DNA of 64,000 nt from Amoebophrya sp. A120 (lineage: Eukaryota > Protista > Dinoflagellata). How positions within the stretch are numbered: position 1 is the stretch's first letter; each line of letters starts with the position of its first letter. The notes below the pieces were generated by a model. That model ran no database searches and was not told where the DNA came from. It saw only the letters and a program-made list of their open reading frames with translations. Below are positions 11,171 through 42,309 of this stretch, piece by piece. The position numbers were made by a program, and so were the translations under genes. The stretch spans positions 2,760,226-2,824,225 of the forward strand of contig CAJINV010000002.1 of the NCBI GenBank assembly GCA_905178155.1, in the 5' to 3' direction.

Positions 11171-11410
11171 ATGGGTTTTTCCCTCGCGCATCTCGTGGAA
11201 GCGGCGCTGCTGTTTGCGAACGCCATGGCGATACTAAACGAGAAGCGGTTTCTCCGGCAATTCGGGCTGGATCAAGCAATGGTGGGGGGGAACGCGACAA
11301 GTTTGCAGAATCAAGTGGCAACATTCCTGCACGCAATGCGGACGTTCATGAAGTACCCATTGATACTGGGAAATTTGGTGTTTATACTGCTGGAATGTGT
11401 GTTTTTTTGA
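11171..11410 (+). CDS. YOS1: Yos1/IER3IP1-family small ER-Golgi membrane protein
   Basis: 79 aa, two hydrophobic segments, motifs LLFANAMAILNEKRFL and MRTFMKYPLILGN typical of the family; intronless. Confidence 0.85.
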   Translation: MGFSLAHLVEAALLFANAMAILNEKRFLRQFGLDQAMVGGNATSLQNQVATFLHAMRTFMKYPLILGNLVFILLECVFF

Positions 11411-13646: not shown

Positions 13647-13908
13647 TATCAAATGTAAAAATGTCTGGGTCTGGAAGGTTACCAGGTTTGTCATGCATAT
13701 TTTACATGACTCAGGATGTCTGTAATGCACGATCTGGCATCACATATTTTCAGAGGCCTTCCTGATGCCTATTCCCCATGACAAATGCCCTCCCCGCGTA
13801 GCACAAACCGGGCTCCTATTGCTGGTCATGCAATACAGATTTTTTTAGAGTCCAGAACTAGCATCACAAGTTCCAACCTTCCAGACCCAGACATTTTTAC
13901 ATTTGATA
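13647..13908. mobile_element. IR element family A in non-coding sequence (copy at 23538-23799)
   Basis: Long perfect TIR TATCAAATGTAAAAATGTCTGGGTCTGGAAGGTT; DR AACTA/AACTA. Confidence 0.93.
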
Positions 13909-14181
13909 AACTACGAATCGCCAAGAGCAAGACCACCGCTCGGTCAAGAGAAAATATTCACTGTTTGATATTTACAGCGACCTGTGCCTTTAAGATTCAT
14001 ACGAAATTTTCTTGTTAGTTGAAAAGCAAGAGTGCAGCTACTCGTTCAATGGAAAGAACAAGCAGCACAAGAAAGAGTTATAATATCACTTTTTCTCGGC
14101 TCGCACGCGCACGCTCTGTTGTACTTGTAACATCTTCTCGTGGTCTTCCTACCGCTCGGATTCTGCCCCCTACTTCCGGCC

Positions 14182-17117
14182 ATGACAACTTCTGTTGAGG
14201 CCGCTGATAGTACAAGGAACAACAACACCGAGCAAGAACTACCAGTAGATCAATCTAGCGCTCTCTACGTCTCTAAATCTATCGCCCAGGAAAACAAGCT
14301 TTCTCAGCGCAGTTCGGAGCCCACCACTGGTACCCCCAGCACGGTTGGCAACGACATTTTGCTGTCTCGCGAGCAGCAGAGCTCGTCCACGAACTCCGGA
14401 GCCGAGGATTCCATGTCCTCCGCGACCGCCGCCGGCTCCACCCCGGCAGCCATGAAGCTGCAAGCCGACACTTCTGATCTGACCCCGACGACGGTCGCTC
14501 ATGGGGATGTTGCGGGTGCTGGTGACATCACGCCCGTTACACCCGCGCCGAAGGCAGAGCAGGGGAAGAAGGCGGAAGAGGAGGAGGAGGAGGAATTCTT
14601 GGTGTGCGAAGAAATTCCGGAACCAGGTATTGAAATTTTTGAGGTGCTATAATCCGCTTCTTGAATTACGTGCTGTTTCATTTTGCCAACAACGACAAGG
14701 TGATACCTTGGAGCATGAAAATCTTCACACTACATTTTTCCTAAATCCTATATCCCCAAGACCCGCGGAACAAGACATTTACAGACACCGGAAAAGTTAG
14801 TAGATCTTTATTTGGAACCGAACTGAAAGGAAATCTAAATCTTCAGCAACGTGCTACACGACATCACTCTTCAGGTATGCGCAACATCCCGTTGATCAAC
14901 GGTGTGGCGCAAGTTCGGGACGAAGACCTGGTCGGGGACGGCTCCGGCGACCAAAACATCTCCACCATTTCCGCGGATGAGGTCCGGGAGGAACTGAACC
15001 GCATCAAGATGCGCCTTCCCAAGCTGAAATTCGAACTGGAGACCCCGGAGCACATATGACAGTGCACAACTCCCCCTCCCCCTCTATTGTATAGCATGAA
15101 CGGCAATACAAGCATCCGCAATAATGCCGGTTTTGCATGACAAATCTGCACTGGAGTTGTGTAGCGCGATTTGGGCACTACCAGAAGTTGTCATGCATAA
15201 TAGTGACAAGGACAAAGCGTGGATTTGGTATTTTGCATGAGAAATGAGAACGAGGGGGGGTTGTGCACTCTCATAGCACATCCAGATGCTCCGCGATTTC
15301 CGGACCGAGCCGTGTGACTTGCCGCTGAGGCAGTGCTTGCAGAAACGGGGCAAGGGGTGTCTCAAGTACCACAACTCCCAGCACTTCCGCCGCCCGTTGC
15401 TGCAGGAGGATGGGTATCAAATGCAAAAATGTCTGGGTCTGGAAGAATGCGCGATTTGTCATGGAGTTTTTCCAAGCTCCACCAAGTCTGGAATGCAGGG
15501 CCTAGCATCACAGGTTTTGCAGCCCCTTGGTGATGCCCATTATGCATGAGAAATGCCATCTCAGCATGGCGAGAAATGGGGACCTTTTGCAAGTCATGCA
15601 ACACAGATTTTTGTATGATCCGCAACACGCATCACAAGTTCGCATCCTTCCAGACCCAGACACTTTTGCATTTGATAACGGGGAGACGCTGGCGTACTTC
15701 GACATGCTGTGTCGATTCGGCGACAACTGTCCGTTGATGATGGACTGCCCCTTTGCGCACTCGAAAACGGAATTGTTGGTCCACCCGGCGAAGTTCAAGA
15801 CGCGGTGCTGCGACAGCTTCAAGTGCTTCGACGACAACTGCTGCTTCGTCCACGAGGGGGACCGGGACCGGCGGGAATTCGCCGTGCACTACTCGTTTGT
15901 CACGGAGGCGCACCCAGATGACTTCCAGCCATTGACCTGCATCCCGGGGAATGAGAATTACGTCAAGCCGAGGGGTATGATCTTTTTATTTACTGGTTGA
16001 ATTATCTTCATCGAAGTTGACGTTCATCTTGTGGTTCACAAATGTCTAGCATGTGTCTACGTGGTCTTTAATTCTAAAACACAATCACAAATGTGCATTA
16101 AAAATCCTGTGCTTCTCTATGGAACAACAATAAATGCCAATGAAATTATATCACAAATCAAACTCTTACTCTTTAACTTTATCAGGCGGCAAGCTCTGTG
16201 GTTCGTACCCGAACCCCTCCAACTGCCCCTACGGCACCCGGTGCCGGTTCGCGCACCGGCGCCAGGAGCTTGGGAACCTCCTTTTCCGCCCGAGTGAGGA
16301 GAATGTCCAGGAGATTACGGATGAATTCTTAATTCTGAAGTACAAGACCAAATGGTGCCCCCACCTCTACCAGCACAACTGGACCTACTGTGTGTACGCG
16401 CACAACTACCAGGACTACCGGCGGAACCCGCAGGTCGGCTACGGCCCCGTGCCCTGCCCGTTTTGGGATCCCCGCGACACGGCGAAATCCAGCTACAACG
16501 ACCGGTGTAAGTTCGGCGCGCAGTGCCCTTTTTCCCACGGCTCGAAGGAGCGGGCGTACCACCCCCTGAACTTCAAGGTCTCCACGTGTCAGGACATTGG
16601 GCCGGGCGAGGACCGGGCGGAGTGCACGCGCGAGCCCTTCTGTGCGTTCTACCACAACGACTTGGATAAAAGACCGATCGTCCCCCACGTGATGAACTAT
16701 TCCAAACCCTTACCGATTGAGAACTTGGTGAAGTACCTGCAGAAGGACTTTTTCGACGCCGGGATCGGGTACAACCACAACGCCAAGCGGTTGAATATGC
16801 ATTGCAAAAATGTCTAGGTCTGGAAGGTTGCAACTTGTGATGCTGCATTTGGATACTACCAAAATCTGTATTGCATGAACAACAAAAGAGGTGCAGTTTT
16901 TGCCACGGCGAGTAGAGGGCATTTGTTCTCATGCGGTATAGGCATGAGGAAGCCCTCACAAAATCTGTGATGCTAGAAGGGCATGCATCACAGACGTCAG
17001 GAGTCATGCAAACTGTGCATGACAAACCTTGCATCCTACTTCCAGACATCCAGGGATATTTGCATTTGATATCGAACCAGAACGAACGGCTGGAGATCTT
17101 GAAGTCGGCGACCTTGT
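14182..17117 (+). CDS. Unkempt-like tandem CCCH zinc-finger protein, copy truncated at the assembly gap
   Basis: Matches 24073-27008; GT-AG introns 14627-14874 and 15975-16185; IR elements at 15055, 15415, 16796, 17118. Confidence 0.7.
15055..15275. mobile_element. IR introner family E
   Basis: TIR TATGACAGTGCACAAC; DR GCACA/GCACA. Confidence 0.9.
15415..15677. mobile_element. IR introner family A
   Basis: DR ATGGG/ACGGG. Confidence 0.9.
16796..17071. mobile_element. IR introner family A
   Basis: DR TTGAA/TCGAA. Confidence 0.87.
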
Positions 17118-17320
17118 TATTTTGAGGAAAAACGTCCCCACCCCAGAGTTGTCATGTAAATCTGCATGCCAAAAAAGTTTCTCTTGCGGAGCCCCATGAG
17201 AGCCGTTTTCTAGTCGTGTTTTGGAATTTGTGATGCTAGAATCGGCATGATGTGCTAGATCTGTGATGCTTCGGAACTAGCTAAACTGGATTACACTACG
17301 AGGGCAAACTTGTCATGCGG

Positions 17321-17420
17321 NNNNNNNNNNNNNNNNNNNNNNNNNNNNNNNNNNNNNNNNNNNNNNNNNNNNNNNNNNNNNNNNNNNNNNNNNNNNNNNN
17401 NNNNNNNNNNNNNNNNNNNN
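17321..17420. other. Assembly gap (100 N)
   Basis: Run of exactly 100 n. Confidence 0.99.
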
Positions 17421-17455
17421 TTCCAGACCCAGACATTTTTGCATTTGATACCGGG

Positions 17456-20412
17456 GCGGCGGTCGCGATTGTCTCCCCGAGTAACGAGGGATCGAGCGCT
17501 ATCCAAGAAAAAAACTGTGTAAGTGTAACTTTGTGTTGCAGACGATGCAAGACAGTCACAACTGTCATGCTGGACATGCAACAGAGGCACTTTTCGTACG
17601 TGTTTTCACGTACTAGCTACGCATGACAGGTTTTCTCTGTCATGCAGGGCAGACTTGTGATGCTGTTCCTCCAAGAAAGTTACACTTACACAGTTTTTTT
17701 CCTGCATAAGCGCTATCGCAGGAAGGAAAAAACTGTCTTTGCTTCTCAAACCCTTGCAATCGCTGCACTTTTACGATGACACGCAAAAAAATTTGTGATG
17801 CGTCACATGATGCTGCGAGAGAAATGAACAGGCATGAAGCGCCGGCCTTTTCCTGCATGATGTCCTCGAGCATGACAAAAGACTGTCTCAACAAGGACGT
17901 TCCGCATTTATAATACAAGTTGAGACTGAGACACGAGTTTTTCTTTTTTCTCACGATAAGCCCGACGGATGCGAACACTTCGAGTACGACGACCGCGGAA
18001 TATCAAATGTAGAAATGTCTGGGTCTGGAAGAATGCATGTTTGTCATGCTTGTCTGGCATGACTCTTAAATCTGTCATACACGTTACCCAAGAGCCGCAT
18101 TTTTCTGTCATGCGGAGACGCAGTTTGTCATGCAGAATAGGCAACACCTACAAGCTCAGAAATTTGTCATGCAGAGCCAGCACTTGTGGCCCCCTCATGC
18201 TACGCCACTCAGCATCACAAGTTTCCAGACATCCAGACATTTTTGCAGTTCATACGGAAGGCGCTGGGTCAAAATCTTCTTCCAATAACAGTAATGAACA
18301 AGCAATTCTACTGGGCCGCAATCCCTCGTCTTCCAATTCTCCGCAGCCTTATGAAATGCAAAAGCATCGTACTAGTATAAATCGCATGAAAAATTTCCTC
18401 AGCATGAGAAAGAACATTTGTAATGCGGATTTAACCTGAGAAAGAAACTTGTAATGCATGAATGCGATTAGTACGAGTACGATACTTTTGCACAGAATAA
18501 GCCTTCGCCAAACACCATGACGAGTTCCAATTTTAACCCGTTCGAGCAAATATCAGGTGCAAAAGTATCCTACTCGTCGTATAAATGCATTACAAATTAT
18601 TTCCTAAGCATGAGAAATGAAATTTGCAATGCGGATTTACCTTCAAGAGAAAGATTTGTAATGCATGACTGCAATCACTACGAGTGCGATACTTTTGCAC
18701 AGGATAGCAAAGTCAGCAGAGCTCGGGGATGACGGTGGGGACAGCATTAGCGTTTGAAAATGAGGTATCGCGAGAAAAGATTGTTTCACGGTGAACTTGT
18801 GATGCATAGAATGAATGGAGCACAGAGCTACTTAGTCGTCTTGCTACACCTGCAAGAGGACTACACCGGAGCTCTATAGCATGTTTTCCGTTCTTGGTTG
18901 GAAGCACGCATGGCAAATTCATCTCTTCTTGTGTAAACAAAGACAAACTTGTGATGCAGACCTTGCAAAATTATCACAGTGAAACAGTTTTTTCATGCGA
19001 TATGAGGAGCGAAAGTCAAGAAATTCCTCTCGGCCGGGGACAACGAAGTCTGCTGCTACTATGCAAGACAAATTGGACCAATCGATCGGAACTCAGTTTT
19101 CCAAAACGGACGGGTCTTCCGTCGGCGGGATCTTCAATATGAGGGTACACAACAGCTCCTCCTCGTTCTCATTTCTCGTGCAAAATACCCAATCTACGCT
19201 TTGCCTCCTGTCACTATCATGCATGACAAGTTCTTCTGGCAGCTGGTGCCCAAATAGCACTACACTCCTGTCCAGATTTGTCATGCAAAACCTGTATTCT
19301 TGCTGACGCTTGTGTTGCTGTCCATGCAATACAGAGCGAGGTGGACGGGGAGTTGTGCACTTTCATATTGAAGCTGTTAGGTGGTGACGACCACGACGAG
19401 GATGAGGACGACGACATCCTCGCTGCGATCTACGACCCGCATCACAGATCGTATCGCCAGAAAAAACTGTTTCACTGTAAACTTGTAATGCAGAATATGT
19501 ATCTCAAAAGTGTTTGTCATGCTACTCATGCAAGACAGTAGATTTTTCGCTGTGCGTTCCCTTACGAGCCTTGCATGGCAAATTTTCTCTGTCATGCAGA
19601 ACAAACTTGTGATGCAAAACGTGCAAAATCCTTACAGTGAAGCACTGTTTTCGTACGATAGATCGAGGCAGGAGATGAATGAGGCAGAAGAAGAGGGCGG
19701 GTATAACGTCGACGGAGCTGAAGGGCAGGATTGGTCTGACGAAGCGGAAACTACGCTGGGCGATATTCTTCGGGCTAGTAAAAATGACCTCCTTGATCCC
19801 CCGCAAAGCCCAACTGCAAACAAATTCCAACCGCACTCGCCGAAAAAGCTTTCCCCCGAACAGTTGCGAAGTGCGAAACTGTTGGATGAAGAGCTCCAGG
19901 CTAGTGGGTTGAAGCAGTCGCGTCGCAACTCTACTATTTCCAGCACGACCAGCAGTCCGGACGGTAAGCTAGGAGCTTTGACTAAAGACGAGAGAGAACG
20001 GTTGAAGATAAAGAAGAAGCACGAAGAGAAGCTGCAAATGGAGGAAAGGATATCCATTTGCTGCAAAAGGTGTATCGCACTGGAACAAACAAATTTTGAT
20101 ATGCAGTCTCGCATGACAGTACCTTTTTTCTATGCCTGAATCTGCATTACAAAGAGACAGAAGTCGATTTTTCCCTTTCAGTAAAGTTGTATTGCGGTTT
20201 TTACCTACTGCGTGCGATCACGCTTTTGCGAGGCATAGAGGATCAACAGTGACAAGTTCCGGGAGGAGGAGGAAAATTTCAAGGCTTTGTTTAAGCAGAA
20301 GTACGCGGTTGTGAATTCCAATACGCATCTGGTAGAAACCTCGCAAAGAATCACGAAGAAGATCGACGACTTGTTTAGCAAAGCCTTCGACAGCATAGAA
20401 GAGGAGGATTGA
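17456..20412 (+). CDS. Duplicated 3' part of the 27-10521 gene (no 5' end)
   Basis: Matches 7565-10521. Confidence 0.55.
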
Positions 20413-21061
20413 TATCAGATTGTATAAGATTTCGAAGTCTGTAGTATGTTGCTATTAAAAAAAATAAAATTGGACTTGGAGCAGAAGAAAGAAGAAAAAA
20501 TCCTATCCTTATACCTGCGAGGGCTACACGACGTCGGACCTTTACGCTACAACTCAAGGAAGTTGTCCTGATTATAGCCTCAGGCTGACCAACTCTAACA
20601 TTGCTGGGAACGAGAATTATGAAACATGTAGTACAACCACAAGGATCTTCATCGCAGCAAATAAGGGTGTTACTACTACAACGCATCCCGTTCTTGCAGC
20701 GCTTCCTGCTGCGCTAGCAAATATGATTTGCCGATCCGAGATAGATCTGTGTTCCATTTCAACATCTCAACTGATGCTGCCAAGTCAGTACCACACAAAC
20801 ACAGCGACACACAACATAGACGACATGCTAGATCATTTTTTACACGAGGAGGAGCTGCACCAGTAGTGCTCTACTGTGAAGATCTCGTTTTCAAGGAAGT
20901 TTGAGTTTATAATTGCGTTTACCACGCACGACGACCCTCTACGTACTTCAACAACCATCTCGATCTGCAGTTGTAAAAAGCCTATAAGTTTTTCCTATCT
21001 GTAAGACGGAAAGAACGCGCTTTCTACAAGGAGTTTCACCAACAACGACCCAAAACTAAAG

Positions 21062-21301
21062 ATGGGTTTTTCCCTCGCGCATCTCGTGGAAGCGGCGCTG
21101 CTGTTTGCGAACGCCATGGCGATACTAAACGAGAAGCGGTTTCTCCGGCAATTCGGGCTGGATCAAGCAATGGTGGGGGGGAACGCGACAAGTTTGCAGA
21201 ATCAAGTGGCAACATTCCTGCACGCAATGCGGACGTTCATGAAGTACCCATTGATACTGGGAAATTTGGTGTTTATACTGCTGGAATGTGTGTTTTTTTG
21301 A
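21062..21301 (+). CDS. YOS1: Yos1/IER3IP1-family protein, duplicate copy
   Basis: Same translation as 11171-11410. Confidence 0.8.
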   Translation: MGFSLAHLVEAALLFANAMAILNEKRFLRQFGLDQAMVGGNATSLQNQVATFLHAMRTFMKYPLILGNLVFILLECVFF

Positions 21302-24072
21302 TAAAAGGAGAGCCCTAGCCTGCGCGAGCGTCATGCTGGACGATAAATGATTTAAGTACTTTCGAAGCGACACACATAGAATAGAAGTAGGCTTTCGCAC
21401 CACAAGTTTGCGTCGGACCTCAATCGATTTCAGTGCGACCACTGCAAACTAGCACGAGGTGGTACTGAGCCATTTTTTGATCACTTGTCCGAACAAGTTG
21501 ATGATGTTCATTTTGATTGGCATTGGTCTCATGTATCAAGAACAATATGACATTTTGTCGCACCTAATTCGGTAGTTGTACATCTTCTGGCCTTGAATAG
21601 AAAAAAGCGCAAAAGCAACTGCATTCGGTTTCCGTTTATTTCTGAATCGCTGCTGCGACATTTGATTTTCGGTTTTTCGTGCGGTTTTTTCATGTGCCTA
21701 CAACTAGTACAACCAACAACGAGATGAAGGATGGCATTGTGCCAAAAATTTTGCAAAATGACGTCGGTTCGTACAAGAAGGAAGCGAAACTTTTGTCTTT
21801 CGCAGCATCAGCCTTATTTCGGTTTTCGTTCTACTACAATAATTTCGTACTAGAGAAAAGGAAATAGAAGAACTTTCGTACAGAACAACGCGATCGGGAT
21901 CGCAATCGTGCAGACTTGGCCGCCAAAGGGATCTATATTAGTCCACTGACACTACTTTAACTTTCTCTGTTGCAACAAAAAAAACGCGCGCCCACAGGAG
22001 TAAGTGAGATGCCTCTCCTTACTGCACAAGCACAATGCTGCCCTGCTCGCGATAACTTGCTGGGTGTTTCTTGACCCTGGAGCTCATGGACGGTAGTTAT
22101 TTTGATCCCAAGAAAATTATCGCCCGTGCAGCCCGCCGCGCCCGCGCCCCTTGCGACCGAATAAAATCTTCAAACGCTAAATAAAAGCTCGACCAAGAAG
22201 CGCCTGCGCCTCGTTAGATAAGTAATCGCGGTTGAATTGCTAGCAGGATAGCAAAAGGAGAAGCAGTATTATTCAGATCATTTTAGATAGGAGTTCGCAT
22301 TCGTAATATACGCAATCCGCCACCTCCGGAAGCGTGTTCAGAAGTTGTACTGATTTCATTTATATCGGCATTCCCTCCCGCAGGTATAAATCAGTGAGCT
22401 GAGACCCGCCCGACGTCAAACCCCGAACTGTCTTTAGCTTGAAATCTCTACGTAAGTTGTACCTCCATCCTGTTCTTTAAAAATCAATCTTTTACCTCCT
22501 ATCTATACCCAACAGTTTTGTGCCTCAATTTGCATTTTCAAAAAATCTTTTACTGCGCTTCACTTGTTGTAACAATACTATCAAAACTCCATTATCATAA
22601 AGGTGTGTACAACTCTTTTGCAGCTTCACAAACTCAGTTCACGCGCACCCCGTAGCTCTGTAGTTTGTTGAAGTTCTTAGAGCTGGAAGACAATTTTGAT
22701 GTAAATCTTTTTTGAATAAATCGTACACACCAAAAAATCATAGATTGCGACAAGAAATAAATTTTGTCTGAGCAAACACAATTGACATCACGGTTGGTAG
22801 GATCCAAAAATTTAAATTCCAAGAATAAATTCAGGACAAAAGGATCGCACTATAAAATCCGAAAAAATACAACAAATCTACATTCGAAAAAAATCTCACA
22901 AGATCTGCGAGCAGCGGCGTGTTTTGAAATAAACATCGCAGTTCTTGGGAAGGAGCATAAATTTCTTTTGAGTACACAACAACACAAAAATTACCAATAA
23001 AACTCCTTACAGTGACCAATAAAAAGCGGCTTTTTGAAAGTTTCGAAGCAGTTCTAACTTACTCCGATAGAGCTTGTTTTCGAGGCTGACAGAATTTTCG
23101 CTGGTCAAAAGTCTCAAAAGAATTTGAGGCGTGAAAGTACAAGTAGAACTTGAAAAAACGAAAGACATAAATCAAGCTAATAGGCACAAACAGTCGCGTT
23201 ACTTATTCACAAGCTTGCTTTTTATCGCTAAGAACATCAACTAGAACCCAAATCGAAGAGTTCTCAAACCAATCTTTTTCAACACCAAAAAGCTTATTTT
23301 CTCAAATACAAAATCACAGAATAACTACCAATCGTGCTATTTGAAATTACAGTATTACTAAGAGAAAACCGCGCTACTTTTACGAGCTTTTCGTTCGATA
23401 ATTGAAGCAGAAACTTTTGGATTTTACAAGTAGAAAAGAGTTTGTATTATCCATAATTCTTACTGTAATATTGATATTCTCAAAACCACTAGCACCGGCA
23501 GAATTTCATATTCTGAGTTTTGTATTTTCTTAAACTATATCAAATGTAAAAATGTCTGGGTCTGGAAGGTTACCAGGTTTGTCATGCATATTTTACATGA
23601 CTCAGGATGTCTGTAATGCACGATCTGGCATCACATATTTTCAGAGGCCTTCCTGATGCCTATTCCCCATGACAAATGCCCTCCCCGCGTAGCACAAACC
23701 GGGCTCCTATTGCTGGTCATGCAATACAGATTTTTTTAGAGTCCAGAACTAGCATCACAAGTTCCAACCTTCCAGACCCAGACATTTTTACATTTGATAA
23801 ACTACGAATCGCCAAGAGCAAGACCACCGCTCGGTCAAGAGAAAATATTCACTGTTTGATATTTACAGCGACCTGTGCCTTTAAGATTCATACGAAATTT
23901 TCTTGTTAGTTGAAAAGCAAGAGTGCAGCTACTCGTTCAATGGAAAGAACAAGCAGCACAAGAAAGAGTTATAATATCACTTTTTCTCGGCTCGCACGCG
24001 CACGCTCTGTTGTACTTGTAACATCTTCTCGTGGTCTTCCTACCGCTCGGATTCTGCCCCCTACTTCCGGCC

Positions 24073-27000
24073 ATGACAACTTCTGTTGAGGCCGCTGATA
24101 GTACAAGGAACAACAACACCGAGCAAGAACTACCAGTAGATCAATCTAGCGCTCTCTACGTCTCTAAATCTATCGCCCAGGAAAACAAGCTTTCTCAGCG
24201 CAGTTCGGAGCCCACCACTGGTACCCCCAGCACGGTTGGCAACGACATTTTGCTGTCTCGCGAGCAGCAGAGCTCGTCCACGAACTCCGGAGCCGAGGAT
24301 TCCATGTCCTCCGCGACCGCCGCCGGCTCCACCCCGGCAGCCATGAAGCTGCAAGCCGACACTTCTGATCTGACCCCGACGACGGTCGCTCATGGGGATG
24401 TTGCGGGTGCTGGTGACATCACGCCCGTTACACCCGCGCCGAAGGCAGAGCAGGGGAAGAAGGCGGAAGAGGAGGAGGAGGAGGAATTCTTGGTGTGCGA
24501 AGAAATTCCGGAACCAGGTATTGAAATTTTTGAGGTGCTATAATCCGCTTCTTGAATTACGTGCTGTTTCATTTTGCCAACAACGACAAGGTGATACCTT
24601 GGAGCATGAAAATCTTCACACTACATTTTTCCTAAATCCTATATCCCCAAGACCCGCGGAACAAGACATTTACAGACACCGGAAAAGTTAGTAGATCTTT
24701 ATTTGGAACCGAACTGAAAGGAAATCTAAATCTTCAGCAACGTGCTACACGACATCACTCTTCAGGTATGCGCAACATCCCGTTGATCAACGGTGTGGCG
24801 CAAGTTCGGGACGAAGACCTGGTCGGGGACGGCTCCGGCGACCAAAACATCTCCACCATTTCCGCGGATGAGGTCCGGGAGGAACTGAACCGCATCAAGA
24901 TGCGCCTTCCCAAGCTGAAATTCGAACTGGAGACCCCGGAGCACATATGACAGTGCACAACTCCCCCTCCCCCTCTATTGTATAGCATGAACGGCAATAC
25001 AAGCATCCGCAATAATGCCGGTTTTGCATGACAAATCTGCACTGGAGTTGTGTAGCGCGATTTGGGCACTACCAGAAGTTGTCATGCATAATAGTGACAA
25101 GGACAAAGCGTGGATTTGGTATTTTGCATGAGAAATGAGAACGAGGGGGGGTTGTGCACTCTCATAGCACATCCAGATGCTCCGCGATTTCCGGACCGAG
25201 CCGTGTGACTTGCCGCTGAGGCAGTGCTTGCAGAAACGGGGCAAGGGGTGTCTCAAGTACCACAACTCCCAGCACTTCCGCCGCCCGTTGCTGCAGGAGG
25301 ATGGGTATCAAATGCAAAAATGTCTGGGTCTGGAAGAATGCGCGATTTGTCATGGAGTTTTTCCAAGCTCCACCAAGTCTGGAATGCAGGGCCTAGCATC
25401 ACAGGTTTTGCAGCCCCTTGGTGATGCCCATTATGCATGAGAAATGCCATCTCAGCATGGCGAGAAATGGGGACCTTTTGCAAGTCATGCAACACAGATT
25501 TTTGTATGATCCGCAACACGCATCACAAGTTCGCATCCTTCCAGACCCAGACACTTTTGCATTTGATAACGGGGAGACGCTGGCGTACTTCGACATGCTG
25601 TGTCGATTCGGCGACAACTGTCCGTTGATGATGGACTGCCCCTTTGCGCACTCGAAAACGGAATTGTTGGTCCACCCGGCGAAGTTCAAGACGCGGTGCT
25701 GCGACAGCTTCAAGTGCTTCGACGACAACTGCTGCTTCGTCCACGAGGGGGACCGGGACCGGCGGGAATTCGCCGTGCACTACTCGTTTGTCACGGAGGC
25801 GCACCCAGATGACTTCCAGCCATTGACCTGCATCCCGGGGAATGAGAATTACGTCAAGCCGAGGGGTATGATCTTTTTATTTACTGGTTGAATTATCTTC
25901 ATCGAAGTTGACGTTCATCTTGTGGTTCACAAATGTCTAGCATGTGTCTACGTGGTCTTTAATTCTAAAACACAATCACAAATGTGCATTAAAAATCCTG
26001 TGCTTCTCTATGGAACAACAATAAATGCCAATGAAATTATATCACAAATCAAACTCTTACTCTTTAACTTTATCAGGCGGCAAGCTCTGTGGTTCGTACC
26101 CGAACCCCTCCAACTGCCCCTACGGCACCCGGTGCCGGTTCGCGCACCGGCGCCAGGAGCTTGGGAACCTCCTTTTCCGCCCGAGTGAGGAGAATGTCCA
26201 GGAGATTACGGATGAATTCTTAATTCTGAAGTACAAGACCAAATGGTGCCCCCACCTCTACCAGCACAACTGGACCTACTGTGTGTACGCGCACAACTAC
26301 CAGGACTACCGGCGGAACCCGCAGGTCGGCTACGGCCCCGTGCCCTGCCCGTTTTGGGATCCCCGCGACACGGCGAAATCCAGCTACAACGACCGGTGTA
26401 AGTTCGGCGCGCAGTGCCCTTTTTCCCACGGCTCGAAGGAGCGGGCGTACCACCCCCTGAACTTCAAGGTCTCCACGTGTCAGGACATTGGGCCGGGCGA
26501 GGACCGGGCGGAGTGCACGCGCGAGCCCTTCTGTGCGTTCTACCACAACGACTTGGATAAAAGACCGATCGTCCCCCACGTGATGAACTATTCCAAACCC
26601 TTACCGATTGAGAACTTGGTGAAGTACCTGCAGAAGGACTTTTTCGACGCCGGGATCGGGTACAACCACAACGCCAAGCGGTTGAATATGCATTGCAAAA
26701 ATGTCTAGGTCTGGAAGGTTGCAACTTGTGATGCTGCATTTGGATACTACCAAAATCTGTATTGCATGAACAACAAAAGAGGTGCAGTTTTTGCCACGGC
26801 GAGTAGAGGGCATTTGTTCTCATGCGGTATAGGCATGAGGAAGCCCTCACAAAATCTGTGATGCTAGAAGGGCATGCATCACAGACGTCAGGAGTCATGC
26901 AAACTGTGCATGACAAACCTTGCATCCTACTTCCAGACATCCAGGGATATTTGCATTTGATATCGAACCAGAACGAACGGCTGGAGATCTTGAAGTCGGC

Positions 27001-29008
27001 GACCTTGTTATTTTGAGGAAAAACGTCCCCACCCCAGAGTTGTCATGTAAATCTGCATGCCAAAAAAGTTTCTCTTGCGGAGCCCCATGAGAGCCGTTTT
27101 CTAGTCGTGTTTTGGAATTTGTGATGCTAGAATCGGCATGATGTGCTAGATCTGTGATGCTTCGGAACTAGGTAAACTGGATTACACTACGAGGGCAAAC
27201 TTGTCATGCGGAATAACCAAAGCTGGATGATTTGTCTAGCAGATTTCCCATTTTGACTCTGGTGTGGGTACGTTTTTACTCAGGATAGTTGTCCCCGGTG
27301 AAGAAGGCTTGCCTCCTCGACGGCGTGAATTTCGTGCAGCCGATCTCGAACTTGCGACCTTTCAAGGACTCGGTCCGGAACACGGAGAAGGCGAACCTGC
27401 AGAAAGTGAGCGGGGTGGGCACGATGCCGGAAACCTCGCCGAGTTCGTCCCCGGTTGTGCAGGGAAACAAGGGGTACGGGAGTGGCGATTCCAACTGGCG
27501 CGGCGGGGGTGGTGCAACTACATCCGGTGGGAACAACAAGGGTGCTGGGAAGTACAACGATGCTTCGTCTTGGGGTACCACCGGTCAACAGAACAACAAC
27601 TCCTGGGGCTCCGGTGGTAAAAACGACAAAAACAACAACTCGTCCTCCTGGGGCGGTAACGACAAATCCGGGAATTGGAACAACGCGAAGGGGGGAAAAA
27701 AATCTTCCAAAGACAATTCCTACGGCTATGGGAAGGACAACAACGACCAGTGGGCCGCCGAGTGGAAGAAGGCCAAGGGCCAGACGGGCGGAAAAAATTC
27801 CTCTTCTTGGGACGACCAAAACTCTGGCTACAATGGCAACAAAGGCGGGAAAATGAACGCGAAATCCTCTGGAAACAACGGCAATTCTTGGGACAACAAC
27901 CAGTCGTGGGCGGGAAACAACACAGACAACAACTCGTCTTGGACGAACAACAGCAACACTGGGATGAACAAGAACAACCAAAATCAGAAGGGGAATGGGA
28001 AGATGAATAAAGGGTCCAAAGAGACCGGGACCGCCGGCAAGAACCAGTACGGGGGAAAGAACGCCACTGATTCGAACAATACCGGGTCCAATCCCTCCTC
28101 GGGCCTTTCCTACCCCGCCCGGACCTCCACGGTGACCGGCGCTGCACATCACAACCTGGTCACTGCGGACTTTGGGGACCAGTCCCCGTATGCGCCGGCG
28201 CCACGGGCGCACCAGAGCATGGGCTACGGTGCAGGTGGGAACAACAACCCCTCTGGGGACACGCCGGAAGGACGATTGACCGCCCCCGCGGAACTGGTAT
28301 TTCTTTGCTTCTGCTTTTTTTGTTCTTTCTTCTCGCACGTTTTAGTGTTTTAGGATTTAGGGGCTGGTTTGTTCTTCTGAACGACTTTCGCTAGTACTCG
28401 AGGAGCTACAACTTAGTGTAGACGAGTTTTGATCCTCATATAAAAATTGCGAACGAGTAGATTTTTTCCAAAAACAAATCCAACTACAGACCCAAGGCCT
28501 GTTGGACCACATGACGGACCTGACGGGCAACCCCCTAGTGGACCCGAGCTCCCCGGGTGGTCTCGACCTGATGCTGAATCCCCTGTACAACCCGTTCATG
28601 GCCCAGGCGTTGGCGGGGCAAACGCCCGGCGGCGCTCCGGATCATGGTGTTGGTGCCCAGAACTTGATCATGCCGGGAGCACCAGCCGGGTTCGGCGGAA
28701 TGGGAGGTGCTTCTAACTTCAACCCGATGTTGCTCGGAGGTGTTGCCGGGAATCTGAATGTCCAGATGGGACAATTCTCGGGAGCAGGGATGGACCCCAT
28801 GGCCAACTTTGCCTTGCAAATGACCATGATGCAGCAGGGATTGGGAGCCGGGGCTGGAGCTGCAGCTGGTGTTGGTGGTCACGGTCTCATGCCGTTGCCG
28901 ATGCCACAATCGACGTCGCAGAACAATCAACATGGTGGGTATGGCGCTCCGCAGCAGGGGAAAAAAGGAAACTCGAAAAACACGAAAAAGAACAACCGAT
29001 CGAAATAG
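24073..29008 (+). CDS. Unkempt-like tandem CCCH zinc-finger RNA-binding protein with N/G/W-rich C-terminal low-complexity region (complete copy)
   Basis: Spliced EHIQMLRDFRTEPC...C...C..YH...RR, CPFAHSKTELLVHPAKFKT, KYKTKWC, CPFSHGSKERAYHPLNFK, CTREPFCAFYH resemble Unkempt fingers. GT-AG introns 24518-24765, 25866-26076, 28297-28489; IR elements 24946-25166, 25306-25568, 26687-26962, 27009-27287. Confidence 0.8.
27009..27287. mobile_element. IR introner family C (truncated copy at 17118-17320)
   Basis: DR CTTGT/GTTGT. Confidence 0.85.
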
Positions 29009-32371: not shown

Positions 32372-34651
32372 ATGTTCGGTCCCGCCCCGCCCTACCCGCC
32401 TGCGAATGGGCAGCACCACATGATCGGTGGCACGAAGAAGGTTTACTCCGCCGTGGACTTGTTGAAGTCGAACGACGAGCTCCTTGCGGAACAGAATCGA
32501 GAGGAGGACGCGTATAAAGCCTCCGTGTGGGACAGGATACTGAAGAACAAAAAACGGTCCCTTCAGCTCTTCGGCCCGGAAAACATTGATCCCGAGCCGC
32601 TGGACACGGTGGATGTGCCAAAGTGGAAGGCCTTGAAGCTGGATTTCAAGAGATCAAACGAGTATGGGTTGATCGAAGAGAAGGTCGGGGTGAGGAGAGG
32701 TATAATTCATTGGTGTTGATGAATGCGATATTTTTATCGCTGTATTTTTATCCTAATGTTGCTTTCTGTTACTGTGCTTGTCGATGCCATACTACAAAAG
32801 CAGGCTTCTACTCTATTGTTTGCGTCTGTTCATTTGATACAGATTTTACCATTGTATGAGGAGACCACGATCACCAAATCTCAACAAACCACTCACCCAG
32901 GCGGCGCCGGTATCCCGGCCATGCAAGCTTCCCTGACCGCCATCGAGGGTCCCGCCGGTATGCTTGCCCTGGAATTCGGTGGCGCCACCGCGAGCAGCAG
33001 GAACATTGATCAGAAAACCACGCGTGTCATCGCCCCGGACGCGAAAACCTCCGAAACCGCACTCGCCATGCTCCCCCAGCCGGTCAACACCGTCGCGAAT
33101 GGACCTTCCAGCAATAGTAATCAGCAGCAACTCTCCCTCGCCCACCAGATGGGCGGGAACGAAGCCGGGCCCGCGAAGCCACAAACTACTCCTGATGAAT
33201 CGACCAAGCAAGCGAATAAGATCGTCCACGATTCGCAAGTGCAACTTTCGATTTACCGAGAGGGGGATCAGATCATCAACTTGGAAAACCCCGATCAGCG
33301 ACTCCGTGCGTTAGAAAAACCGCAGTGGCATAGGCCCTGGAAGCTACACAAAGTGCTAGCTGGTCACACCGGTTGGGTCCGCTGCGTCGCGGTTGACCCG
33401 TCGAATGAATGGTTCTGCACGAGTGGGCAAGACCGGCTGATCAAATTTTGGGACTTGGCGACGGGAACGTTGAAGTTGACATTGACCGGGCACAGTTCCT
33501 GCGTCCGCGCATTGGAGATCTCGAAACACCACCCGTACTTCTACTCGGGAGGGGAGGATAACGAGGTATAGAAAAGATGAGACTTATTTCATTGTGGCAA
33601 AAAATTTTTGTCATGCGCTTTTTGCACAAACGCCGTAAGAGCTCTATTGCTATCATGCAACACAAATTCACTTGAACAACTCAATGCGCCTTATTGCACC
33701 ACCGCATGACAGGTTCGCTGTTGGGATCTGAACACAAACAAAATCATTCGAACCTACCACGGCCACCTCCAAGCGGTTTATTCCCTGAAGCTCCACCCCA
33801 CCCTGGACATTCTCGCCTCGGGCGGTCGTGATGGAACGGTCCGAATTTGGGATATTCGGTCCCGATCGCAGATTTTCGCCTTAACCCACGAAGCCGCCGT
33901 CCACTGCTTGGCCAGTCAGGCCGCGGAGCCGCAGTTTATCTCCGGGAGTGCGGATAACACGGTATACATAGTTAGAAAGATAGTACTATTGCGCATGCGC
34001 TGTAGTAGATGTATTTCACCCTGCATGAGACGAGGGAATGCAAACTATAGATACCGATTTCTAAGTATTTCGATTTTCTCTTCTACTCGTCCTGCATCTC
34101 TATTGCGCAACATCGACCTACTTCACATGAGCAACAAATCCTTATCACAGGTGAAGCTCTGGGACCTTGCGGCCGGTAAATCCATGGCGGTTCTGACGAA
34201 CCACAAAAAGTCCATTCGCGCCGTCGCGATCCACCCCAAGGAGTACACCTTTGTCTCCTGCAGTAACGCGCAGAACAAAGTCTGGCGGTGTCCAAAGGGC
34301 GTGTTTGAGCGCGACATCTACGGCCACGACAGCATCATCAACGCCTGCGCGATCCGGGAAAATGAAGACGGATCAAGTATTTTAGTCGGCGGCGGAGACG
34401 ACGGTTTTCTCCACTTCTGGGACTGGAAAACGGGGTACTTGTTTCAATCCATCGAGGGCAAGCCGCAGCCGGGGTCTTTGTCAAGTGAGAACGCGATCTT
34501 CGGGATGGCGTTTGACCAGTCACAGACCAGATTAATAACCGCGGAGTGCGATAAGACGGTGAAGATTTACAAACAAGACTTTGACGCGGATGAAAAGTCG
34601 CACCCGATCGGAAATTGGCGCGGGTTTCTGTCGAAAAACAGGAAGAGGTGA
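32372..34651 (+). CDS. PLRG1: Pleiotropic regulator 1 / Prp46 WD40 spliceosomal NTC protein
   Basis: [55 protein letters not shown] signatures; GT-AG introns 32684-32842, 33566-33712, 33962-34150 restore frame. Confidence 0.92.
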
Positions 34652-38370: not shown

Positions 38371-41300
38371 ATGGCCGAACTGGAGATTCCAGTCTTGCGG
38401 ATCGAGAAGCTGGGTTTCCAGCACGGCGACTCGGGCGCCAGCATCGACCCCGCGTTTATCAAAGAGATGCGGAAAGCATTGGAAACCGTCGGGTTTTTCT
38501 ACCTAGAAGGGTTCGATGTGGCGAAAGAACAGGGTGGGTTGGACTTGGATTTAGAGAAGGTGTTGAAAATATGAAACTGGACAACCCTCCCTACCCCTCG
38601 TTTGTCATGCGAAATCCCAAATCCAGATGGCGCCTTGTGGCACTATTTGCATTACAGATTTCGGGAACTACCGTGCCAGCACTACATTCAGCGCGTGAAC
38701 TTGTCATGCACAGGCTCCACGTGTGAGTGTGTTGGTGCTTGTGATGCTGTTCGTACTTACAATACAAATGAGGGGGAGGGTGGTTGTGCACTGTCATAGA
38801 GAATCGGGCACGAATTTTTCGAGCAGAAAGGAGAAAACAGCAGCCAGCACCTGGATTTGACCATGGAAACCGTGTTTGAAAAATTAGTCGAGGACAAGAA
38901 CATCAACAACGCGGATGATGAAACAACAGCAGGCAGCACTACAAATTCCGATAAAAATTCCACATCAAACAAAAGCAACTACCTCCCGATCAAGCACTGG
39001 TGGGCGGGGCGCGGGTACCTGCCCGCGGAGCGCCATACCTTTGCGCTGAACAAAGAGACAAAGGAGATTGAGTCCGTTTCCTCCGAGGTTCTGACCCGGC
39101 AGGCATTTGATTTCGTCCGAGAAGTCCCGGAAGGGTTTTACGGAGACGGGTTTTTCGCACAGATGAAATTGAACAGCAATAACGCAGATGGTGGTACAAC
39201 AACCACTGCGAAAGTAGAAGTACCGCTCCAAGTCGAGCAGGCGCGACGAGATTTTCTCGAGAAGTACGTCTTATCAAATGCAAATATGTCTGGGTCTGGA
39301 AGGGTACAACTTGTGATGCTACTTTTGGAATCTACATAAAAGCTGTATTGCATGAACAGCAAAAGAGGTGTAATCTGTGCTACGCGGAGAGGGAATTTCT
39401 CATGCGGTATGACAGCATCAGAAACCCTCGCAAAATATCCCATGCTAGGGCATGCATCACAGACCTCATGGGCCATGCAAAATCTGCATGACAAACTCCT
39501 GCACTCTTCCAGATGACCCAGACATTTTTGCAATCCATACGTCTACGCGAAGAACAAAAGCACGGATGACACGGTGTCGGTTGAATCAACGGTGAGTTTA
39601 ACGGAGTATTTGAACACCGAGTACTCCGAGGCGATGAAACGGGTCGGCCGGAAACTGATGACCGCCATGGCGTTGGCCCTGGACGAGGCGCTGTGCGAAG
39701 ACACCGGGGCGGAGGGGTCTACGCACTTCGTGAAATTGCTGCACAAACTGACCACGACGAATCACGGGGGAAGGGGTTTGGCAAAAGAAGATGAAGTGGA
39801 TGTTCCAGCAGGACAAGATCAAACGGACGGAGCAACCGCTTCTAGCGCAGTCCTACCACAGCTAACTTCCGACGACCAGAAGAGTACAACGGATGTCGAC
39901 AATTTCCACAACAGCAATAGTTTGACCACGTTGTCAACCGCTGCCTCCACTTCTGTCCCAACCTCGCCGGCAGTCGGGGTGCGGATGAACCATCATGCCG
40001 GATATAAAAGTGCACAACTCCCCCTCCCCCTCATTTGTCATGCAAAATATCCAATCCACCCTTTGCCTCTTGGCACATTTTGCATGACAAGTTCTGGTCG
40101 CCCAAATAGCACTACACTCCAGTGCAAATTTGTCATGCAAAACCGGCGTTCTTGCTGATGCTTTTATTGCCGTTCATGCTATACAAATGAGGGGGAGGGG
40201 GAGTTGTGCACTGTCATACCGGAACAGCATCAAACACAAAGAACGGGAAGACCGATTTGAACGATTTGTTGTACGAAAACCACGACCAAGCGCATTCCTA
40301 CTATGGATTGTAAAAATGTCTGGGTCTGGAAGATTGCAACTTCTCGTGCTAAATCTGAATCATGCAGAAATCTGTGTTGCATGAGTGCTGAAAGGTGTCC
40401 ACTTTCGACCAAGTTTGGAGGGAGTTTCTCATGCAGGATAGGCATGGCAGAGACCTCACAGACTCTGTCATGCTAGGTCCCGCATTCCAGATCCAGGCCT
40501 CACACGTCATGGAAAACCTGCATGACAAGTTTACACTCTTCCAGACCCAGACATTTTTGCATTTGATACCTACTCCGTCCCGGCAACTTGGATGACAGAA
40601 GCCTCTGACGCTTCCTGGTGGTATATCAAAAGGAAAAATCGCCCCTCCCCATAATGAAAAGGTATGCTTCTAGAAATTTGTGATGCCGATTTGTGACCAC
40701 AAATCCTGTCTCTCTTGCAAGAGGGCAAACTCAGAGACTCCGCCACGATATGCGGGCGGTTTGTAATGCTGCAAGGCCTTAAGGGTAGGCGTCTGCCATG
40801 CTGGGCTCCTACACCAAGAGGCGCCCCCTTAGGATCGCGATCTGCGTGCAGTCCTTTACTGCAAGACAAATGTGATTTGTGTACTCAAATACAGCAACAC
40901 AGATTTCCGTTTTGATATGGGGACGGGGGATTTTTCTTTTCGATATGGTACCTCCGGGTGTTGCACTACAAGGGAATCATCCAGGACGACCCGAATAATT
41001 TCAAGGTTTCCATGGCGCCCCACACGGATTTCGGCTGGCTGACGTTGTTAAACCAGGACTCCACGGAAACGCCAGCACTACAAATCCAGGACATCCACAA
41101 CAATTGGCACGGAGTGGCACCGCGGAAGAACGCGATCATTGTGAACATCGGGGACATGATGTCGGCTTGGAGCAATATCTTGTGTAAAAACGCCCCCAAG
41201 AACCCATAGTTGTCATGCAGATCCACATGCTTAAAATATCTCTCATGCGGAGCCCCATGAAATCGCGTTTTCTAATGCTGTTTTGAAATTTGTGATGCTC

Positions 41301-42309
41301 GAATCAGGATGAGCGACTAGATGTGTGATGCTGCTGTACTAGCTAAACACGAATAATACACTGCGGGCCTAAACTTGTCATGCGCAAGAGCCAAAGCTTG
41401 TCGATTTCTCTTGCAAAGTTCCCAACTTGATGACTAGGGGGTCGTGGGGACGTTTTTGCATATGATAAGCAACGGGAGATACCTAGCCCGGTTGCACCGC
41501 GTGATTCATTCGGGAAAGGAGCACCGGGTCTCCTATTGCGAGGAAAAATCCCCCCTGCCCATATCGCAAAGGTATGTTTCCGAAAATTTGTGTTGCTGGT
41601 TTGAGACAACAAATCACGTCGGTCTTGCAAGAAGCGAAGCGCAGGGGCTTCCGCCCCATTATGGAAGCGATTTGGCATGCTGTTGGGACTAGGGGACAGC
41701 CGTTTGCAATGCTAAACAACTAGACGCACACCCAATCGCCCCTTCTACGTAGGCTGAGGATCTGGCTGCGATGCCGTATTGCAAGACAGCGCGCATATGT
41801 GTACGGAAATCCAGCATCAGAAATCTCGTCTTGATATGGGGAGGGGAGATTTTTCGTTCTGATATCTCCGTGCCCTTTTTCTACAACCCGTCGCTCGACG
41901 CGAAGGTGCCGCTGAAACTGAAGAAGGATTTGAAGGAGCAGGCGTTTGGGGTCGGCGGTTCGAACACGGTGAAGGTTTTGCAGAATCAGGACTTGTATGC
42001 ATTGCAAATATGTCTGGGTCTGGAAATCTGTGATGCTGAGTTGAGCATGATTGAAGCGCTTGCAATGGCAGCCAGGCATGACAAGTTTTGGAGACGCCTA
42101 CTGATGCCTTACACGCATCACAAATTTCGTTTTTCCATGACAAAGTATTAAGCTCCTCTTTTGCTGCTCTTGCAACGCAGATTTTCCGGGAATGCAAGAC
42201 ACGCATCACAAGTTCCACTGTTCCAGACCCAGACATTTTTGCATTTGATAACTTGGAGTACGTGTACTACGGGGAACATTTGGCCAGGTCGCTGGGGTAT
42301 GCGTTGTGA
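38371..42309 (+). CDS. 2-oxoglutarate/Fe(II)-dependent oxygenase (isopenicillin N synthase-like) interrupted by 8 IR elements
   Basis: N-term ALETVGFFYL; spliced YLRVLHY, HTDFGWLTLL (HxD), IVNIGDMMSAWSN|GRYLARLHRV, HRVS|VPFFYNP (RxS). Confidence 0.9.
38570..38798. mobile_element. IR introner family E
   Basis: DR GAAAA/GAGAA. Confidence 0.85.
39272..39539. mobile_element. IR introner family A
   Basis: DR CGTCT/CGTCT. Confidence 0.9.
40003..40218. mobile_element. IR introner family E
   Basis: Long TIR AGTGCACAACTCCCCCTCCCCCTCATTTGT; DR CCGGA/CCGGA. Confidence 0.92.
40302..40568. mobile_element. IR introner family A
   Basis: DR CCTAC/CCTAC. Confidence 0.9.
40624..40945. mobile_element. IR introner family J
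   Basis: TIR ...GAAAAATC.CCC.CCCCATA; DR TGGTA/TGGTA. Confidence 0.88.
41176..41467. mobile_element. IR introner family C
   Basis: DR AGCAA/AGCAA; splits the WSN|GRY motif. Confidence 0.9.
41534..41864. mobile_element. IR introner family J
   Basis: DR TCTCC/TCTCC; splits RVS|VPFF. Confidence 0.9.
41996..42250. mobile_element. IR introner family A
   Basis: DR ACTTG/ACTTG. Confidence 0.9.

What the first reader, a model, noticed from the sequence alone, without database searches (positions are those of the whole stretch)
38371..42309. Conserved enzyme motifs are rebuilt exactly across eight insertions from four families
The 2OG-Fe(II) oxygenase carries 8 elements (E, A, E, A, J, C, J, A). 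The excision rule yields WWY|LRVLHY, HTDFG, WSN|GRYLARLHRV and HRVS|VPFFYNP with no stop or frameshift. This is the best internal control that removal is base-precise and the gene is under selection.
Basis: partly seen in the sequence, partly recalled or inferred. Interest (0 to 1): 0.75.

Follow-up and report, generated by a model that had tools for sequence, protein, structure and literature searches.

The report
Transposon-derived hairpin introns in Amoebophrya gene
An iron-dependent oxygenase gene of the marine parasite Amoebophrya A120 is interrupted by eight short transposon-derived hairpins of a kind already published, and removing each with one flanking 5-base repeat gives the annotated protein; they are likely cut out of the RNA by a mechanism still unknown, for which this window gives a testable rule.

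Summary
Eight elements of four families interrupt the gene. Each has TAT...ATA inverted ends and a flanking 5-nt direct repeat (7 perfect, 1 at 4/5). Removing each element plus one repeat gives a 572-aa 2OG-Fe(II) oxygenase, identical to the annotated Amoebophrya sp. A120 protein GSA120T00013706001. These are the A120 'introners' of Farhat et al. 2021 (PMC7789003). Not found in the papers read: (1) elements sit in both orientations in their genes (73 vs 69); (2) where the two repeat copies differ, the upstream letter is kept at 7 of 7 informative sites (repeat positions 1-4); (3) the repeat has no splice-site sequence; (4) TAT equals positions +2 to +4 of local canonical GTAT donors; (5) part of the stem shows a sense-strand G-U excess. 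Best reading: RNA-level, stem-guided splicing by a U1-less spliceosome (inferred; no reads were examined).

The parts
38371..42309 (+). 2OG-Fe(II) oxygenase gene (IPNS/ACCO-like), 9 exons, 572 aa; annotated as GSA120T00013706001 / CAD7932767.1
38371..38569 (+). Exon 1 (start codon; DIOX_N-like stretch); ends with the upstream repeat copy
38570..38803 (.). Element 1 (family E; TIR body 38570-38798) plus downstream repeat copy; the copies differ at position 3 and the annotated protein keeps the upstream letter (Lys, not Arg)
38804..39271 (+). Exon 2
39272..39544 (.). Element 2 (family A; body 39272-39539) plus downstream repeat
   Evidence: junction gap-free against P0002
39545..40002 (+). Exon 3 (largely a low-complexity insert absent from homologues)
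40003..40223 (.). Element 3 (family E; body 40003-40218) plus downstream repeat
40224..40301 (+). Exon 4
40302..40573 (.). Element 4 (family A; body 40302-40568) plus downstream repeat
40574..40623 (+). Exon 5
40624..40950 (.). Element 5 (family J; body 40624-40945) plus downstream repeat; splits the start of the catalytic domain
40951..41175 (+). Exon 6, holding the H442-x-D444 iron ligands
41176..41472 (.). Element 6 (family C; body 41176-41467) plus downstream repeat
41473..41533 (+). Exon 7, holding H501 and R511-x-S513
41534..41869 (.). Element 7 (family J; body 41534-41864) plus downstream repeat
41870..41995 (+). Exon 8
41996..42255 (.). Element 8 (family A, reversed relative to elements 2 and 4; body 41996-42250) plus downstream repeat
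42256..42309 (+). Exon 9 with stop codon TGA

Best explanation
The eight inserts are short inverted-repeat elements flanked by 5-base duplications, likely non-autonomous DNA transposons, which are likely removed from the pre-mRNA, together with the downstream duplication, by a modified U1-less spliceosome that is predicted to read the terminal hairpin instead of GT-AG. Shown: the anatomy, the restored protein, use of both orientations, and retention of the upstream repeat letter at positions 1-4. Inferred: insertion by an integrase-like DDE transposase making 5-bp staggered cuts. Also inferred: the stem of about 25-30 bp brings the intron ends together in place of U1-U2 bridging; the 5' cut falls at, or one base before, TAT (N-TAT would mimic the local canonical donor G-TAT); an A of the terminal ATA serves as branch point a few bases before the 3' cut; and the 3' cut is set 4-5 nt beyond the stem by distance rather than by sequence. 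Because both ends are equivalent, either orientation works.
For: The spliced product equals the annotated protein, and the same rule reproduces P0165 and P0166 with no mismatch in the aligned blocks. Both orientations are used: family A 7 vs 10 on the + strand of the window; 73 vs 69 of 142 assigned in loci L001-L173, 33 more unassigned. The 5' and 3' end profiles are alike in transcript orientation. The upstream letter is kept at 7 of 7 informative sites. Six rest on annotated proteins: position 1 (3228), 2 (26687), 3 (6271, 9247, 38570) and 4 (twin 7823). At 26687 two orthologues also carry the upstream residue. At 55813 the downstream letter would give an in-frame stop. All four canonical introns bounded by annotation blocks begin GTA, three GTAT, and they lie in the same genes as elements. 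Sense-strand G-U exceeds A-C at stem positions 19-30: 85 vs 45, orientation-flip p=0.0005; 23 vs 10 in the window and 62 vs 35 in the other loci. PMC7789003 (passages) reports RNA-seq support for such introns genome-wide, snRNAs other than U1 found in A120, U1 not detected, and 5-bp repeats (supplement legend).
Against: No RNA reads were examined, so splicing of these eight introns rests on the annotation and on protein homology. There is no branch-consensus enrichment or polarity at the 3' arm, and CTRAC occurs near the end of only 2 of 55 elements, + strand only. No GT-AG or GC-AG register exists for the 8 focal elements, and only for 3 of 55 and 19 of 175 others. Repeat composition equals phase-matched coding sequence, so the spliceosome would have to ignore both terminal dinucleotides. 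The G-U excess is absent at stem positions 8-18 (81 vs 87), borderline over 8-30 (166 vs 132, p=0.056) and absent in whole-arm duplex energy (112 vs 105); several ranges were tested. The GTAT likeness rests on 4 introns. Mismatches at repeat position 5 are depleted (3 of 50; post hoc), which a cut set by distance does not explain.
Confidence: 0.5

Rival explanations
1. RNA-level removal without the spliceosome: a structure-specific nuclease cuts at the foot of the stem and 5 nt beyond it, and a ligase joins the exons, as is supposed for euglenid nonconventional introns.
For: No dinucleotide, branch or polarity signal; strong terminal stem; fits upstream retention and the sense-strand G-U excess. 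Euglena introns also have a paired motif with a longer 3' spacer, N3 vs N5-6 (PMC12501133, abstract and outline).
Against: Requires an unidentified enzyme. The invariant TAT matches the local canonical donor at +2 to +4. Canonical introns occur in the same transcripts.
Confidence: 0.25
2. RNA polymerase II skips the element: it stalls at the hairpin or cruciform, and the nascent 3' end re-anneals at the downstream repeat copy, so the element is never transcribed.
For: Predicts upstream-copy retention (7 of 7), orientation independence, no sequence rule in the repeat, and least tolerance of mismatch at the last repeat base. Observed mismatches by position are 15, 14, 9, 9, 3 (chi-square p=0.056; position 5 alone p=0.006, post hoc).
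Against: A template-strand hairpin would favour A-C over G-U on the sense strand, and the opposite is seen at positions 19-30. 43 of the 230 elements counted for this (15 of 55 and 28 of 175) carry a repeat mismatch. I know no nuclear precedent (own knowledge).
Confidence: 0.1
3. The elements are excised from DNA (IES-like or by repeat-mediated slippage) in an expressed copy of the genome.
For: Transposon anatomy with exact restoration of the target; orientation independence.
Against: Two assemblies hold the elements in place (window). The retained copy is always the upstream one in the transcript. The G-U bias follows the transcribed strand. No germ/soma split is known for this parasite (own knowledge). 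All informative genes lie on one strand of one block, so a replication-linked polarity is not excluded.
Confidence: 0.07
4. The mRNA keeps the hairpins: the cDNA junctions are reverse-transcriptase template switches, and ribosomes hop between the duplicated in-frame codons that any 5-nt repeat contains.
For: A hairpin plus short direct repeat is the known artefact anatomy (PMC8240250, passages). The words 'RT-PCR' and 'template switch' do not occur in the main text of PMC7789003. 7 of 8 focal repeats duplicate an in-frame codon.
Against: Reverse transcriptase copies the downstream repeat first and should keep its letters (inference), yet the annotation keeps upstream letters at positions 2-4 in 5 of 5 cases. 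Element 1 has unmatched codons, AAA vs AGA. Eight to eighteen hops per mRNA would be needed.
Confidence: 0.05
5. The gene is dead and the elements are simply unexcised transposons.
For: No orthologue from the sister strain was found; DIOX_N scores below its gathering cut-off.
Against: Intact 572-codon frame and catalytic residues. The same pattern holds in every multi-element gene of the window, including one 86-87% identical to orthologues over the queried exon.
Confidence: 0.03

Closest known systems
Amoebophrya A120 introner elements / non-canonical introns (PMC7789003)
   Same: Same organism by the name attached to the identical protein. IR starts with TAT, then less-conserved bases, then an A run; 5-bp direct repeats; non-canonical boundaries; lengths near the reported 240-nt mean.
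   Different: Nothing in kind. In the passages and supplement text read, the junction register is left open (IRs 1-5 nt from the splice sites) and element orientation is not discussed (figures not seen). Stems here pair over about 30 nt, longer than the 8-20 nt reported.
Introners of Polarella glacialis and Aureococcus (10.1101/2020.10.14.339549, passages)
   Same: TIR DNA-transposon origin, target duplication consumed in the intron, some classes work in either orientation, one class has a 5-nt TSD.
   Different: Those recruit G-initial donors or AG acceptors from the TSD or the element. Here the repeat has no sequence requirement and most elements have no GT/GC-AG register.
Euglenid nonconventional introns (PMC12501133 abstract; PMC11282704 passages)
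   Same: Non-GT-AG ends brought together by base pairing, TSD-like repeats, supposed MITE origin, longer unpaired spacer on the 3' side, machinery unknown.
   Different: The signature differs (N3-CDG...CHG-N5-6 then purine, vs TAT...ATA-N5), with no purine preference at the exon start; unrelated lineage.
IS3EU/GingerRoot DNA transposons (PMC10045372, passages)
   Same: TA..TA termini; occasional TG variants are also seen here.
   Different: Their TSD is usually 6 bp. Here 243 of 309 elements have a perfect 5-nt repeat and 0 of 309 a perfect 6-nt one. No transposase-bearing copy was found.
IPNS/ACC-oxidase-like 2OG-Fe(II) oxygenases (PF03171 with PF14226)
   Same: HxD...H triad and RxS motif; PDB hits such as TraH, SpoC and ACC oxidases at E 5e-15 to 1e-12.
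   Different: About 200 aa longer than P0002, with inserts that include a low-complexity stretch of about 130 aa; substrate unknown.

Membership tests
Amoebophrya A120 introner elements | Host is Amoebophrya A120 | tested here: met
   Spliced protein identical to a record named Amoebophrya sp. A120; two neighbouring genes likewise.
Amoebophrya A120 introner elements | Terminal inverted repeat starting with TAT, variable bases, then an A run | tested here: met
   The family E ends (elements 1, 3) start TAT but lack the clear A run at positions 11-13.
Amoebophrya A120 introner elements | 3-5 nt direct repeat at the exon/intron boundary | tested here: met
   5 nt in 8 of 8, one with a mismatch.
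Amoebophrya A120 introner elements | Repeated families and non-canonical boundaries | tested here: met
   no GT-AG register in 8 of 8.
Amoebophrya A120 introner elements | Junctions supported by RNA-seq reads | not tested
   No reads examined; the annotated protein matches.
Canonical U2-type spliceosomal intron | GT/GC...AG ends, polar branch site | tested here: not met
Canonical U2-type spliceosomal intron | Excised as a lariat by the spliceosome | not testable with these tools
   Needs lariat sequencing or spliceosome inhibition.
IS3EU/GingerRoot transposons | TA..TA termini | tested here: met
   296 and 299 of 309 ends are TAT (the scan required at least 5 of 6 terminal matches).
IS3EU/GingerRoot transposons | 6-bp target duplication | tested here: not met
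   0 of 309 perfect 6-nt repeats, 243 perfect 5-nt.
IS3EU/GingerRoot transposons | Cognate DDE transposase | tested here: inconclusive
   Only family A ends were searched for long copies; two were found (834 and 481 nt) and their coding capacity was not tested.
Euglenid nonconventional introns | 5'-N3CDG...CH'G-N5-6|R signature | tested here: not met
   End profile is TAT...ATA-N5 with no purine bias after the repeat.
2OG-Fe(II) oxygenase (PF03171) | Profile score above the gathering cut-off | tested here: met
   73.4 bits vs 23.
2OG-Fe(II) oxygenase (PF03171) | HxD...H iron triad and RxS | tested here: met
   H442, D444, H501, R511, S513 invariant in 8 aligned sequences.
DIOX_N (PF14226) | Profile score above the gathering cut-off | tested here: not met
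   24.8 bits vs 27.3, E 3.7e-5, partial match.

The most novel reading that the evidence does not exclude
These 'introns' are never spliced: RNA polymerase II jumps from the upstream to the downstream target-site copy across the hairpin, giving discontinuous nuclear transcription at tens of thousands of sites. This would explain upstream-copy retention, orientation independence, the lack of any splice-site sequence and the scarcity of mismatches at the last repeat base.
Probability: 0.1. Interest if true: 0.95.

Novelty: already known. Interest (0 to 1): 0.38.

Why it matters
The element class, the organism and even this gene model are published, so the finding is not a discovery. How A120 removes tens of thousands of non-GT-AG introns without U1 remains open in the papers read. 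The register (upstream repeat kept at positions 1-4), orientation independence, the sequence-free repeat and the TAT/GTAT likeness narrow the options and give single-base tests. The clearest is the letter kept at repeat position 5 of element 54328-54592. If a spliceosome works without either terminal dinucleotide, or polymerase skips the inserts, it would change the rules for how transposons become harmless introns.

Tried and rejected
No whole genome is held, so family statistics rest on the window and on loci L001-L173; the relation of that assembly to the window's strain was not established, and its loci share only element sequence with the window. The element pattern had 0 matches in viral contigs. 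No earlier scan findings. TA-duplication (Tc1/mariner or ciliate-IES type) and repeat lengths other than 5 were rejected. The window's clustering of repeat mismatches at positions 1-3 (13 of 15) was not reproduced in the other loci (11, 9, 5, 8, 2); only the position-5 shortage persists. A first frame assignment gave only 49 of 269 confident elements and was replaced by a self-trained model (175 of 293; 118 rows dropped for weak frame support, and 16 of 309 earlier for fewer than 3 repeat matches). No stop-codon case turned up among the 28 mismatched elements of the other loci. A Pfam scan of 21 flanking exons and one PDB search gave no residue at a mismatch position. Using mutation direction to tell which repeat copy had drifted was inconclusive (hand count). 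Splice-site recruitment from the repeat was not supported (only NNAGG 10 vs 5.3 expected, p=0.046, one of 11 tests). dN/dS was not possible without orthologous DNA. One paper on algal introners was not held. No structure prediction was run. Absence from print is claimed only for the searches and the passages read; the figures of PMC7789003 (S19-S25) and the datasets of PMC12130899 were not seen and may already show register or orientation.
Full report
Observation. The region 38371-42309 holds eight elements of 216-331 nt with inverted ends running TAT...ATA. Each is flanked by a 5-nt direct repeat outside the inverted ends, perfect in 7 of 8; no other length from 2 to 8 fits. Removing each element with one repeat copy gives a single 572-codon frame. 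Elements and repeats make up 2220 of 3939 nt, each element brings 1-6 in-frame stops if kept, and random offsets restored the full frame in 16 of 20000 trials.

Identity. A search with exon 6 returned one protein, P0001, named Amoebophrya sp. A120 and listed as GSA120T00013706001 / CAD7932767.1. It equals the rule-derived protein at 572 of 572 positions. It scores 73.4 bits on 2OG-FeII_Oxy (cut-off 23) and 24.8 on DIOX_N (cut-off 27.3), keeps H442, D444, H501, R511 and S513, and resembles IPNS/ACC-oxidase-like enzymes in the PDB. Farhat et al. 2021 (PMC7789003; passages of the main text and supplement legends; figures not seen) describe these elements: non-canonical introns with inverted repeats that in A120 begin with TAT, 3-5 nt direct repeats, about 29,850 copies in 1,954 families, U1 snRNA not detected, mechanism unknown. 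PMC12130899 (passages) notes tens of such introns in single A120 genes and one TIR family with integrase-like homology.

How precise is the removal? An open frame fixes length only modulo 3; a uniform offset of 8 also stays open. I scored each junction at offsets -4 to +14 against an HMM of 111 homologues (those of 250-420 aa among the 164 proteins then held). The repeat-defined offset is best at junctions 1, 2, 4, 5, 6 and 7: by 7 bits or more at 5-7, 2-4 bits at 1-2 and about 1 bit at 4. It is not best at 3 and 8, where all in-frame offsets score within a few bits. Junctions 3 and 4 lie in an insert that homologues lack. HTDFG is inside exon 6. Selection is suggested by the intact frame set against 30 gaps (16 frameshifting) in 2180 nt between the elements and their nearest sampled relatives (Poisson about 0.002), but that comparison overstates the elements' age, and no dN/dS could be run.

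The rule is general. The window holds 55 distinct elements after removing a 9891-nt exact duplication; 40 have perfect repeats and 15 have one mismatch. Excision opens + strand frames of 1090 aa (18 elements), 925 aa (7), 497 aa (6) and others; 50 of 55 lie in such frames. Annotated P0165 matches the rule without mismatch over aligned blocks covering 23 of 24 junctions; it departs at 10160, where the model leaves the frame. P0166 matches at 4 of 4, and its orthologues P0167 (named A25) and P0168 align there without gaps. A pattern scan returned 173 loci from a second assembly. A scan blind to the repeat found 309 elements there: 243 with perfect 5-nt repeats, 39 at 4/5, 11 at 3/5, 16 worse, and none with a perfect 6-nt repeat. 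A coding frame could be assigned for 175 of 293.

New constraints. (1) Orientation: both are used about equally, 73 vs 69 of 142 assigned, and the two ends look alike in transcript orientation. (2) Register: where the copies differ and the choice changes the residue, the upstream letter is kept at 7 of 7 sites: position 1 (3228), 2 (26687, 55813), 3 (6271, 9247, 38570) and 4 (7823). Six rest on annotation, which I assume followed transcript alignments; 26687 is backed by orthologues, and 55813 rests on stop avoidance alone. Eight further window mismatches are synonymous and uninformative, including the only position-5 case (54328). So the 5' cut lies at or one base before TAT and the 3' cut 4-5 nt after ATA. 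(3) The repeat has the composition of phase-matched coding sequence at all five positions (224 elements). (4) The four canonical introns bounded by annotation begin GTAC, GTAT, GTAT and GTAT, so TAT equals donor positions +2 to +4 if the intron starts one base early; one acceptor has CTAAC directly before CAG. (5) On the sense strand G-U exceeds A-C in the stem at positions 19-30 (85 vs 45; flip test p=0.0005; both data sets separately p<0.02) and among rare variants of family A (33 vs 18). It does not at 8-18 (81 vs 87) or in duplex energy (112 vs 105); interior substitutions give 122 vs 107. (6) Repeat mismatches by position are 15, 14, 9, 9, 3, unexplained.

Mechanism. Origin as non-autonomous DNA transposons follows from the inverted ends and target duplication. 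The termini resemble IS3EU/GingerRoot (TA..TA, usually 6-bp TSD; PMC10045372, passages), but the duplication is 5 bp, so membership is not claimed. For removal I put RNA-level processes at about 0.75: a U1-less spliceosome guided by the stem (0.5) or a nuclease-ligase route as supposed in euglenids (0.25; PMC12501133 abstract, PMC12621601 and PMC11282704 passages). Polymerase skipping (0.1) fits the register and the position-5 shortage but not the strand of the G-U bias. DNA excision (0.07) and reverse-transcription artefact with ribosome hopping (0.05) fit less well. Reverse transcriptase should keep the downstream letters (inference), though the anatomy is that of known artefacts (PMC8240250, passages), which makes RT-PCR a poor test. 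Introners that work in either orientation are known in Polarella and Aureococcus, but these recruit splice sites from the duplication (10.1101/2020.10.14.339549, passages), which these do not.

Verdict. Its value lies in the register and symmetry rules, which I did not find in the passages read and which make the open mechanism testable at single bases. No RNA or DNA reads were examined. Novelty: already known. Interest 0.38.

Noticed in passing
window 7609-7817 and 7823-8067: Two elements of different families sit head to tail at one target site, separated only by the 5-nt repeat (zero-length exon); the annotated protein shows both removed, leaving one copy.
   Followed up: yes
window 7530-17280 and 17421-27171: Exact duplication with period 9891 nt beside a 100-N gap at 17321-17420; likely an assembly artefact, or a very recent tandem duplication.
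   Followed up: partly
window, all coding frames; loci L001-L173: Insertion phase is skewed, 116:63:45 for phase 1:0:2 among 224 elements, with no base preference inside the repeat; G at -2 and C at +2 outside it hint at a weak symmetric target preference.
   Followed up: partly
window 33607-33715 and 61596-61808: Decayed family A remnants without intact ends or repeats outside the long coding frames, while 50 of 55 intact elements lie in long frames; suggests the ends are maintained where removal is needed.
   Followed up: partly
window 10160-10346: The annotated model P0165 departs from the rule-derived frame at this element, which would otherwise continue to 10518; possibly a missed intron in the annotation.
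   Followed up: no
L033 632-1465: A family A element enlarged to 834 nt by an internal insert of about 590 nt, still flanked by a perfect 5-nt repeat.
   Followed up: partly
element ends, TIR positions 4-7: The two arms pair at positions 1-3 (97%) and 8-30 (mostly 80-97%) but poorly at 4-7 (37-79%), giving a recurrent internal loop next to the cut sites.
   Followed up: partly
window 24073-29005: CCCH zinc-finger gene (P0166) with four elements and three canonical introns, 86-87% identical to two orthologues over the queried exon; a better internal control than the oxygenase.
   Followed up: yes
window 2571, 3228, 36820, 49682: Elements with one terminal variant (TGT, TAC, TAG) in place of TAT; those at 2571 and 3228 lie in annotated spliced genes, so TAT is not strictly required at the 5' end.
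   Followed up: no
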